DNA from: Chthoniobacterales bacterium
GTDB taxonomy: Bacteria > Verrucomicrobiota > Verrucomicrobiia > Chthoniobacterales > UBA6821
Reading direction: 5' to 3'
Length of the DNA: 64,000 nt
Assembly: GCA_019747735.1 (NCBI GenBank)
Contig: JAIEQL010000007.1
Coordinates: 10,456 to 74,455 of the forward strand
In this document: in pieces, positions 2,050 through 2,195 of the stretch
Position numbering within the stretch: position 1 is the stretch's first letter
How the letters are laid out: the number at the start of each line of letters is the position of its first letter
Made by a program: the position numbers and the translations under genes
The notes under the pieces: generated by a model
The model's database searches: none
Seen by the model: the letters and a program-made list of their open reading frames with translations, nothing else
Told to the model about the DNA's origin: nothing

Positions 2050-2195
2050 TAAGAGGGTTTCTTGAAAATAAATAAAATTGATGCAGTACCAGGAACGAAG
2101 CGCACAGACCCGTAGTGTATATGGACATACTCGAGGACGCGAGCACTGGAGCGACGCCGTAATGCGCAATTTTAGTCTTTTCAAGACACCCTCTA
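2050..2195. repeat. PE-A palindromic element, intergenic copy (146 bp)
   Basis: Terminal IR taagagggtttcttgaaaa (2050-2068) pairs with cttttcaagacaccctcta (2177-2195), 17/19 matching. The core gatgcagtacc...actcgaggacgcgagcactggagcgacgccgtaatgcgc is homologous in reverse orientation to 13333-13474 and 27959-28105. Confidence 0.85.

What the first reader, a model, noticed from the sequence alone, without database searches (positions are those of the whole stretch)
2050..2195. PE-A family: about 145-bp element with a conserved core but divergent terminal inverted repeats (four copies in 64 kb)
Copies lie at 2050-2195 (convergent spacer before mutL), 13333-13474, 14788-14889 (a shortened 102-bp form) and 27959-28105. 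Classical MITEs keep conserved termini around a variable core. Here the internal core is the best conserved part (…gcgcatt.cg.cgtcgct..agtgctc....cctcgagta…cact…ctgcatc…). The terminal IRs differ between copies (tagagggtgtcttgaaaa, agagtctgtccaaatgc and agccctcgtgcataac) while still pairing within each copy. That pattern suggests compensatory evolution of a stem around a functional core, which would point to an RNA or DNA structure, or propagation by a mechanism that does not read the termini.
Basis: seen in the sequence. Interest (0 to 1): 0.6.

Follow-up and report, generated by a model that had tools for sequence, protein, structure and literature searches.

The report
Hairpin mini-transposon inserted inside bacterial genes
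The four repeats are copies of a small, non-coding, hairpin-shaped mobile DNA element of a verrucomicrobial genome; one has landed in frame inside the aconitase gene and a second lies in the 5' end of the gspK reading frame, and the family keeps a conserved centre while its self-pairing arms change.

Summary
Four copies exist at the stated coordinates (nhmmer E 1e-18 to 1e-41) and there are no others in the window. Each is a roughly 142-147-nt imperfect palindrome. Their centres are usually more alike than their arms, and each copy's arms pair with each other.

Collecting 44 non-identical full copies from verrucomicrobial MAGs and metagenomes shows strong stem covariation (85% paired vs 68% shuffled; 339 vs 124 double-change cells). 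This also holds within one subfamily.

It is not an RNA gene. It has no Rfam match, G:T and A:C mismatches are equal (88 vs 82), both strands fold equally well, and copies lie in both orientations and inside ORFs.

It is a MITE-like element that behaves like the Rickettsia palindromic elements. Copy 4 is a clean 147-nt insertion (144-nt element plus a 3-bp AAT duplication) in aconitase, and the empty site is preserved in relatives that are 81-82% identical. Relatives of the element sit in frame in UvrA and, apparently, in GspE, Hsp70 and MiaB.

At least five arm-defined subfamilies share the core. A sixth, in a marine gammaproteobacterium, shares only the central ~48 nt.

The mobilising enzyme was not found. 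The "termini are not read" idea is unsupported. My collection was baited with the core, which inflates the contrast between core and arms.

The parts
2050..2195 (-). Copy 1 (subfamily B; arms TAGAGGGTGTCTTGAAAA... / ...TTTTCAAGAAACCCTCTTA). It fills the convergent spacer between ORF 600-2030 (+) and mutL 2203-4068 (-).
   Evidence: nhmmer E 6e-37. DNA hairpin -25 kcal/mol, z -4.4. mutL identified by Pfam. Near-identical B-type ends occur in L126, L145, L156, L170 and L174.
13333..13474 (+). Copy 2 (subfamily A; arms AGAGTCTGTCCAAATGCTACTGCTG... / ...CAGCAGCGCATTTGGGCCAGACTCT). It lies antisense inside the 5' end of the gspK ORF 12439-13578 (-), where it would encode residues ~35-82.
   Evidence: nhmmer E 5e-41. 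Hairpin -35.5 kcal/mol, z -5.5. ORF translation. T2SSK_1st domain hit downstream. Whether translation starts upstream of or inside the element is not settled.
13504..13515 (+). Solo fragment of an A-type arm (TGTCCAAATGCT), 30 nt beyond copy 2. Probably the remnant of a partial tandem copy.
   Evidence: Read directly. Tandem and partial tandem copies are seen elsewhere (L116 with period 144, L155).
14788..14889 (-). Copy 3 (subfamily A, 102 nt, internal deletion of the core between two CTCG repeats). It lies between two pseudopilin genes. Its end abuts the TAA stop of ORF 14889-15323.
   Evidence: nhmmer E 1e-18. Hairpin z -6.0. Alignment gap. N_methyl pseudopilin domains.
27962..28105 (+). 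Copy 4 (subfamily D-like, 144 nt). It is inserted antisense and in frame in aconitase (27845-30787, -), adding 49 residues (RPLVEF...CTRAN).
   Evidence: nhmmer E 3e-35. Insert relative to IRP1 between residues 851 and 860. Absent from the closest homologues P0005 and P0006. Empty sites at nucleotide level in L187 and L189. AF2 places it as a coil with pLDDT <50 between two confident strands.
27959..27961 (.). Target-site duplication, copy a (ATT on + strand = AAT in gene orientation).
   Evidence: The empty site reads ACTAGAAAA|AATGGGCAAAGC. The filled site reads ...AAAAAT[element]AATGGG....
28106..28108 (.). Target-site duplication, copy b (ATT on + strand).
   Evidence: with the sequence.

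Best explanation
These are copies of a non-autonomous, imperfectly palindromic mobile DNA element of ~142-147 bp. It is a MITE that behaves like the Rickettsia palindromic elements, and it lives in a verrucomicrobial (Chthoniobacterales-like) genome.

Shown:
- It has inverted-repeat arms that together with the centre form one long hairpin or cruciform-capable palindrome.
- It has no coding capacity of its own.
- It is dispersed in many genomes.
- It has inserted independently into the same spacer in different lineages.
- At least one copy is a clean insertion with a 3-bp target duplication, whose empty site survives in relatives.
- It is tolerated in frame inside housekeeping proteins, as an apparently disordered loop.
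- Its arms are kept self-complementary by compensatory change, while a central ~50-90 nt is conserved in sequence.

Inferred:
- It is moved in trans by a transposase encoded elsewhere in the genome. For the D-type this probably makes a staggered 3-bp cut, as DDE enzymes of the IS5/PIF-Harbinger kind do.
- The outer 10-15 nt of each arm are the subfamily-specific transposase sites.
- The rest of the arms need only pair. That pairing is maintained by selection on transposition-competent master copies, or by template-switch correction of quasi-palindromes.
- The conserved apex serves as a shared cis-acting or host-factor site.
For: - Repeat reality.
- Hairpins.
- Spread: 91 nhmmer hits (duplicate contigs included) on loci fetched from verrucomicrobial MAGs and metagenomes, giving 48 distinct full-length copies; 44 were aligned.
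- Host proteins are only ~55-60% identical to those MAGs, while element cores are 80-88% identical.
- Covariation.
- Arms pair within a copy but not across copies: scores 17.8 vs 7.5 vs 5.7 for shuffled arms.
- Strand symmetry.
- Empty vs filled site and 3-bp duplication. Two more D-type copies have 3-bp flanking direct repeats, L117 (AGT) and L163 (ATT). Three matches in about 10 copies has a chance probability of about 5e-4.
- In-frame insertions: aconitase, UvrA. By ORF continuity only: GspE-like ATPase, Hsp70, MiaB-like.
- Independent hits in the fabH-purA spacer, at different positions, orientations and subfamilies.
- AF2 loop.
- Precedents: RPEs and in-frame MITEs (PMC10969869); intragenic palindromic repeats including in uvrA of the verrucomicrobium Opitutus terrae (PMC3733652); compensatory changes in REPIN hairpins (PMC3116915).
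Against: - No autonomous partner or transposase with matching ends was found in the window or in about 1 Mb of fetched loci.
- A target duplication is demonstrated for one copy and suggested for two more. A general test across subfamilies gives no signal above chance.
- Subfamilies A, B, C and E have either no duplication or only an ambiguous TA.
- Every collection scan used the core as bait, so the contrast 'core conserved, arms variable' is partly ascertainment. Elements with the same arms and other or extended cores exist (L004 5640-5794, L122, L033).
- Why families with different ends, in two phyla, share one 48-nt apex is not explained by the standard MITE model.
Confidence: 0.8

Rival explanations
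1. A REPIN-like element moved as a single-stranded DNA hairpin by an HUH tyrosine transposase (RAYT/IS200-type). The hairpin is the substrate, so arms need only pair.
For: - Long hairpin with compensatory changes, as reported for REPIN spacers (PMC3116915).
- Tandem arrays as in REPIN clusters (L116, period 144).
- A conserved unpaired CTAC (GTAG on the other strand) next to the inner stem in subfamilies A, D and E.
- Opitutus terrae, a verrucomicrobium, is rich in intragenic GTAG repeats (PMC3733652).
Against: - Copy 4 has a 3-bp target duplication, which HUH peel-and-paste transposition does not make.
- The conserved part is the centre, not the two ends as in REPINs.
- The right arm lacks the GTAG tag, and in subfamily C the tag is paired and on the other strand.
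- The window shows no orientation bias (2 + and 2 -).
- No recurrent Y1-transposase-like ORF next to elements, although Pfam was not run on every ORF.
Confidence: 0.08
2. The conserved ~48-nt apex is the true functional unit. It would be a site bound or cut by a trans-acting protein such as the neighbouring PD-(D/E)XK 'transposase' or a recombinase. The hairpin arms would be interchangeable carriers, so the element is guided by its centre rather than its ends.
For: - The apex GTGCTC-N4-CCTCGAGTAY-loop-RTACACTSCGG-N-T-YTGCGC is shared at 85-90% identity by subfamilies with unrelated arms and different flanking repeats. This includes one in a gammaproteobacterium-like host.
- A PDDEXK_2 gene lies 141 nt from copy 4, and its homologues lie next to or are interrupted by elements in L127, L139, L177 and L184.
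Against: - The collection was baited with that very motif.
- The PDDEXK_2 association is not distinguishable from chance if the gene is as frequent as in this window (1 per 64 kb). In three loci it is simply another gene hit by an insertion.
- Arms are conserved within subfamilies.
- No biochemical or genomic evidence links any protein to the apex.
Confidence: 0.08
3. A structured non-coding RNA, or a transcription or translation signal such as a terminator or small RNA, selected for host function.
For: - Stable fold and covariation.
- Several copies abut start or stop codons.
Against: - No Rfam family at gathering score or at E <= 5.
- G:T equals A:C in stems.
- The bottom strand folds slightly better in 30 of 44 copies.
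- Copies lie sense and antisense to genes and inside ORFs.
- No terminator or promoter signal above shuffles.
- Presence or absence varies between close relatives.
Confidence: 0.03
4. Dead remnants decaying at random, with arm complementarity left over from a recent burst.
For: Copy 4 and several metagenomic copies have degraded arms.
Against: Double compensatory substitutions far exceed shuffled and slid controls, both across and within subfamilies. Cores stay 80-88% identical between genomes whose proteins are ~55-60% identical.
Confidence: 0.01

Closest known systems
Rickettsia palindromic elements (RPE-1 and relatives)
   Same: - About 100-150-bp palindromic repeats with no transposase.
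- Dispersed in spacers and inserted in frame into unrelated housekeeping genes, adding a roughly 45-50-residue segment that the protein tolerates (PMC10969869).
- Here: aconitase, UvrA and others, with the insert predicted as a loop.
   Different: - Different phylum (Verrucomicrobiota vs Alphaproteobacteria).
- Sequence relatedness was not tested.
- Here a 3-bp target duplication and an empty site are documented.
- The family splits into arm-defined subfamilies that share a core.
- Only about a fifth of sampled copies span long ORFs, and the consensus is not strikingly stop-free.
Bacterial MITEs (e.g. Correia/NEMIS, QMITE, Nezha; Tourist-like elements of the IS5/PIF-Harbinger superfamily)
   Same: Small size, terminal inverted repeats, target duplication, many copies, mobilisation in trans, occasional in-frame gene fusions (PMC10969869). 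Transposases of the PIF/Harbinger-IS5 group make 0-, 2- or 3-bp duplications (PMC12730594), matching the 3-bp (D-type) and possible TA (B/C-type) flanks.
   Different: Classical MITE families are defined by conserved termini around a variable interior. Here several sets of termini surround one conserved interior. No cognate IS was found.
REPINs / REP-RAYT systems, including GTAG- and CGTC-tagged repeats
   Same: - Hairpin-forming doublets with compensatory changes and tandem clusters (PMC3116915).
- Intragenic copies are abundant in the verrucomicrobium Opitutus terrae, including in uvrA (PMC3733652).
   Different: - REPINs conserve the two ends and vary the spacer, and leave no target duplication.
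- No RAYT gene was seen here.
- The GTAG-like motif is on one arm only.
ERIC (enterobacterial repetitive intergenic consensus)
   Same: About 127-bp imperfect palindromes whose most conserved part is a central inverted repeat (recalled from memory, not tested). Intragenic ERIC copies are mentioned in PMC10969869.
   Different: Enterobacterial. No sequence relation was tested. ERIC copies are mostly in transcribed spacers and are discussed as RNA elements.

Membership tests
[quoted passage not shown] | Small (50-500 bp) and without a transposase gene | tested here: met
   Elements are 139-148 nt. No ORF of their own; they are read through only as part of host ORFs.
[quoted passage not shown] | Terminal inverted repeats | tested here: met
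   Arm complementarity within a copy scores 17.8, against 5.7 for shuffled arms. Outer helix.
[quoted passage not shown] | Target-site duplication flanking the element | tested here: inconclusive
   Met for copy 4 (AAT; empty site in L187/L189) and suggested for L117 and L163. There is no signal across all copies. The F-type has 6-nt direct repeats in 5 of 6 complete copies.
[quoted passage not shown] | Multiple dispersed copies, with presence or absence differing between related genomes | tested here: met
[quoted passage not shown] | A cognate autonomous IS with the same ends | tested here: inconclusive
   None in the window or fetched loci.
Rickettsia palindromic elements (RPE) | Palindromic ~100-150-bp repeat inserted in frame in functional protein genes | tested here: met
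   Aconitase and UvrA. Further cases by ORF continuity.
Rickettsia palindromic elements (RPE) | Insert lies where it does not disturb the fold (surface loop) | tested here: met
   AF2 of aconitase residues 760-980. The insert is a coil with pLDDT <50 between strands E126-132 and E187-194, whose 10-residue blocks average pLDDT 92 and 69-92. The alignment was shallow (10 sequences).
Rickettsia palindromic elements (RPE) | Sequence homology to RPE-1..10 consensus | not tested
   No RPE sequences were at hand. So the element is filed as 'works like', not as a member.
REPIN / REP-RAYT | Two inverted REPs with conserved ends and a less conserved spacer | tested here: not met
   Conservation is highest at the centre and lowest at the ends.
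REPIN / REP-RAYT | No target duplication (HUH single-strand transposition) | tested here: not met
   A 3-bp duplication at copy 4.
REPIN / REP-RAYT | Associated RAYT (Y1 transposase) gene flanked by the repeats | tested here: inconclusive
   No recurrent transposase-like ORF near elements and none recognised among window ORFs. Not every ORF was scanned with Pfam.
Structured non-coding RNA family | Match to a curated RNA family | tested here: not met
   Rfam 15 at gathering score and at E <= 5 gave no hit on any element.
Structured non-coding RNA family | Strand-specific structure (G:U tolerated, A:C not) and constant orientation to transcription | tested here: not met
   G:T 88 vs A:C 82. MFE of top vs bottom strand shows no preference for one strand. 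Both orientations occur.
Integron attC / folded single-strand recombination sites | Conserved boxes at the base of the hairpin with a variable centre | tested here: not met
   The opposite pattern is seen: variable base, conserved apex.

The most novel reading that the evidence does not exclude
The ~48-nt hairpin apex (GTGCTC-N4-CCTCGAGTAY...RTACACTSCGG..TGCGC) is an autonomous cis-acting module. It would be recognised by a widely distributed trans-acting protein, for example an Rpn/PD-(D/E)XK nuclease or a recombinase. It is carried by hairpin elements with unrelated arms and different target duplications in two phyla. That would make it a mobile-DNA class specified by its centre rather than by its ends.
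Probability: 0.1. Interest if true: 0.8.

Novelty: new variant of a known kind. Interest (0 to 1): 0.55.

Why it matters
- It extends the 'selfish DNA inside protein-coding genes' phenomenon, best known from Rickettsia, to free-living or aquatic Verrucomicrobiota. It comes with a documented empty and filled site in aconitase. This gives a tractable case for asking how proteins tolerate 49-residue insertions, and whether such inserts seed new protein segments.
- The architecture is unusual for a MITE. Several sets of termini share one conserved apex, compensatory evolution of the arms is measurable, and the apex recurs in a gammaproteobacterial element. If this survives an unbiased census, it points to a shared cis-acting function or host factor that current MITE models do not include.
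- Practically, the elements break assemblies (many contigs end in them). They also create spurious N-terminal extensions and inflated ORFs, which annotators should recognise.

Tried and rejected
- Rfam at gathering score and at E <= 5: nothing on the elements.
Only the verrucomicrobial hits were real.
- Viral contig scan: one chance match.
- BLAST of A-type and F-type elements against plasmids: no match.
- Profile search with the element-encoded peptide: 3 short hits, uninformative.
- Search for solitary 'empty' arm hairpins, to test the idea that a mobile core inserts into pre-existing palindromes: none found.
- Recurrent neighbouring ORFs as candidate transposases: only PDDEXK_2 recurs. This is not separable from chance and is often itself a target.
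- Generic target-duplication test after maximal inverted-repeat extension: same as chance.
- Filled vs empty comparison at the pepF-kinase spacer (L167 vs L118): spacers are unalignable.
- Stop-codon analysis: open frames are only mildly enriched, 0.84 and 0.68 per strand against 0.45 in shuffles. The element is therefore not obviously 'designed' to be translatable.
- Promoter and terminator scans: nothing above shuffles.
- dif/loxP-like or protelomerase-site readings of the apex were considered from memory and dropped for lack of a real match.

Full report
**1. The observation**

The four stretches are real repeats. A profile built from them recovers 13332-13474 (+), 2054-2195 (-), 27962-28105 (+) and 14788-14889 (-), with E values of 5e-41 to 1e-18. 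Nothing else in the 64-kb window scores below E = 2.9. The repeat finder pairs them independently.

Copies 1-3 fold as single long DNA hairpins (z -4.4 to -6.0). Copy 4 folds poorly (z -1.0).

The core is more conserved than the arms for the pairs c1/c2 and c1/c4 (0.77-0.79 vs 0.50-0.62), but not for c2/c4 (0.69 throughout). Each copy's left arm pairs with its own right arm (score 13-20) and not with another copy's (4-7).

Copy 3 is a copy-2-type element with an internal deletion.

The window is 44% G+C and carries a type II secretion operon, the dcw cluster, mutL and aconitase.

**2. Where the copies sit**

- Copy 1 fills a convergent spacer before mutL.
- Copy 3 lies between two pseudopilin genes, and its end abuts a stop codon.
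- Copy 2 lies antisense in the 5' end of the gspK ORF.
- Copy 4 lies antisense inside aconitase.

Against human IRP1, the aconitase has about 53 extra residues between positions 851 and 860. The closest homologues in the protein collection are 81-82% identical outside the insert. They read LRITRK|NGQSEEI, where the window reads LRITRKN[49 residues]GQSEEI.

The DNA of two such relatives (L187, L189) preserves the empty site: ACTAGAAAA|AATGGGCAAAGC. The window has ACTAGAAAAAAT, then 144 nt (AGACCTC...GAGGGCT), then AATGGGCAAAGC. This is a clean 147-nt insertion with a 3-bp target duplication.

AlphaFold places the insert as a low-confidence coil between two confidently predicted strands.

**3. 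Relatives elsewhere**

A loose core pattern in species-representative genomes returned mostly chance hits. The true copies were in several Verrucomicrobiota MAGs: LacPavin MAG_45_28, Xiphi-554, two Chthoniobacterales MAGs and an uncultured Chthoniobacter. One more true hit came from a MAG labelled only 'bacterium' (SKS3.bin34).

A tighter pattern in metagenomes gave 70 loci. In all there were 91 profile hits (duplicate contigs included) and 48 distinct full-length copies, of which 44 were aligned.

Host proteins of those MAGs are only ~55-60% identical to the window's, while element cores are 80-88% identical.

The copies fall into subfamilies defined by their arms:

| Subfamily | Arm start | Window copies |
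|---|---|---|
| A | AGAGTCTGTCCAAATGCTACTG | c2, c3 |
| B | TAGAGGGTGTCTTGAAAA | c1 |
| C | TAGAGCATTTTC | none |
| D | AGACCTCTTTCGAAACTCTACTG | c4 |
| E | AAACTGCCTCAGAAAT | none |

Arms are well conserved within a subfamily across unrelated insertion sites.

**4. Covariation**

The alignment was made by MAFFT without reference to structure. On it, a 40-pair hairpin gives:

| Measure | Observed | Shuffled partners | Slid by 1-3 columns |
|---|---|---|---|
| Cells paired | 85% | 68% | 30-55% |
| Double-change cells | 339 | 124 | 76-114 |
| Covariation score | 0.47 | 0.19 | about 0.12 |

No shuffle in 500 reached the observed value on four of the five measures; for the count of pairs with a double change, 1 of 500 did.

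RNAalifold had found 19 of 28 pairs with compensatory changes. Within subfamily A alone, 9 of 31 pairs carry double changes, against 2.7 in shuffles.

So the arms are actively kept complementary.

**5. Not an RNA gene**

- Rfam has nothing, even at E <= 5.
- In the stems, G:T and A:C mismatches are equal at 88 vs 82, once one invariant G:T is set aside.
- The two strands fold about equally well; the bottom strand is slightly better in 30 of 44 copies.
- Copies occur in both orientations and within coding sequence.

The palindrome is therefore a property of the DNA.

**6. Mobility and tolerance in genes**

About 10 of the 48 sampled copies lie in long ORFs.

UvrA in L059 carries the insert between positions that are 11 residues apart in solved UvrA structures. 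A GspE-like ATPase, an Hsp70, a MiaB-like enzyme and a PDDEXK_2 gene are read through in frame.

The fabH-purA spacer was hit independently. An A-type copy abuts the purA ATG in two close relatives. An E-type copy in the opposite orientation abuts the fabH stop in three others.

Tandem arrays occur, with period 144 in L116. Other small repeats nest inside the apex loop.

Two further D-type copies have 3-bp flanking direct repeats: AGT and ATT. Across all subfamilies no duplication signal exceeds chance. B- and C-type ends always read TA|GAG...CTC|TA, which is ambiguous.

**7. A core shared beyond the phylum**

About twenty near-identical copies in marine metagenomes form a ~170-nt hairpin with entirely different arms. 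They share only the central ~48 nt with the verrucomicrobial elements, at 40 of 46 positions with L177.

In five of six complete copies they are flanked by 6-nt direct repeats (TAACTA, TAGTTA, GAGCTA).

Their host looks gammaproteobacterial. Its S20 scores 84-105 bits against the top-scoring PDB S20 chains, which I take from memory to be Pseudomonas, Acinetobacter and E. coli ribosomes (the output names no organisms), against 30-50 bits for lower-ranked chains. The nearest named RimK is from Thalassocella.

**8. Caveats**

All my collection scans used the core as bait. The contrast between a conserved core and variable arms is therefore partly built in.

Elements with A-, C- or E-type arms but an extended or different interior do exist.

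No transposase with matching ends was found. The only recurrent neighbour is a PDDEXK_2 'transposase' gene. It is too frequent, and too often itself interrupted, for the link to mean much.

**9. Conclusion**

This is a MITE-like, RPE-like palindromic mobile element family. As far as Rfam and the searchable literature show, it has not been described. In-frame insertions into housekeeping genes are documented for it.

Its unusual feature is real: compensatory arms around a conserved apex that is shared by families with different ends. Precedents exist for each ingredient:

- RPEs and in-frame MITEs (PMC10969869).
- Intragenic palindromes in Opitutus terrae (PMC3733652).
- Compensatory REPIN hairpins (PMC3116915).

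I therefore rate it a new variant of a known kind, of moderate interest.

Noticed in passing
window 2801-2850; 43684-43733; 6079-6195: A second palindromic repeat family. AAAAAGGGGTCAGTCCCGGGATCCC|GGGATCCCGGGACTGACCCCTTTTT is a perfect 50-nt palindrome lying in frame in the MutL linker, where it encodes KKGSVPGSRDPGTDPF just before the MutL_C domain. A 92% identical copy forms the last ~13 codons and the stop of ORF 43693-44253. A related inverted repeat with 53-nt arms lies inside ORF 5614-6606. The GGGGTCAG start fits the GGGGWSAS motif reported for inverted repeats flanking tyrosine-transposase genes (PMC3733652).
   Followed up: partly
window 60577-60640; L072 1126-1410; L103 1236-1290: A third small repeat, with inverted ends TAGTGTATTAAATTGAAAAGG / CCCCTTTTCAATTTAATACACTA. 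It is present as a fragment in the window, and it is nested in the apical loop of a PE-A copy in an uncultured Chthoniobacter MAG.
   Followed up: partly
window 5461-5593, 20758-20879, 32016-32137, 43181-43210: Intergenic repeats built from AAACTCAAACT / AGTTTGAGTTT units, partly as local inverted repeats. Exact 26-34-nt matches to window 5516-5542 and 6717-6750 occur in the verrucomicrobial MAG loci (L004, L030, L031, L033). These genomes therefore share several small-repeat families.
   Followed up: no
window 26916-27818: A PDDEXK_2 'PD-(D/E)XK nuclease family transposase' gene sits 141 nt from copy 4. Homologues lie ~400 nt from an element in L127. They are interrupted by an element at the same codon in L139 and L177, and apparently L184. 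This is a possible but unproven link to the mobilising activity.
   Followed up: partly
window 13333-13474 and 14788-14889: Copies 2 and 3 are in inverted orientation 1.3 kb apart (55-nt arms, 84% complementary) and bracket the gspJ and gspI-like genes. This geometry could allow inversion of the segment.
   Followed up: no
window 47675-53302: An unusually long ORF of 1875 residues made of repeated UvrA-like ABC modules (internal repeats at 47981, 49040, 50633 and 51665). It looks like a fused or duplicated UvrA paralogue.
   Followed up: no
L119-L183 (marine metagenome loci), e.g. L136 4916-5086: A recently expanded hairpin element of ~170 nt in a gammaproteobacterium-like host. It shares only the 48-nt apex with the window's family, is flanked by 6-nt direct repeats at TAACTA-like targets, and ends many contigs.
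   Followed up: partly
L116 11496-11816; L155 1425-1620; L049 6757-7006; L138 119-375: Elements occur as head-to-tail arrays or adjacent pairs. In L116 the period is 144 nt (48 codons), and the array is read through as an N-terminal extension of the purA ORF.
   Followed up: no
window 30857-31021 and 20912-21042: Two further local inverted repeats in spacers: 31-nt arms at 97% complementarity with 103 nt between them, and 41-nt arms at 83% with 49 nt between them. Neither is related to PE-A.
   Followed up: no
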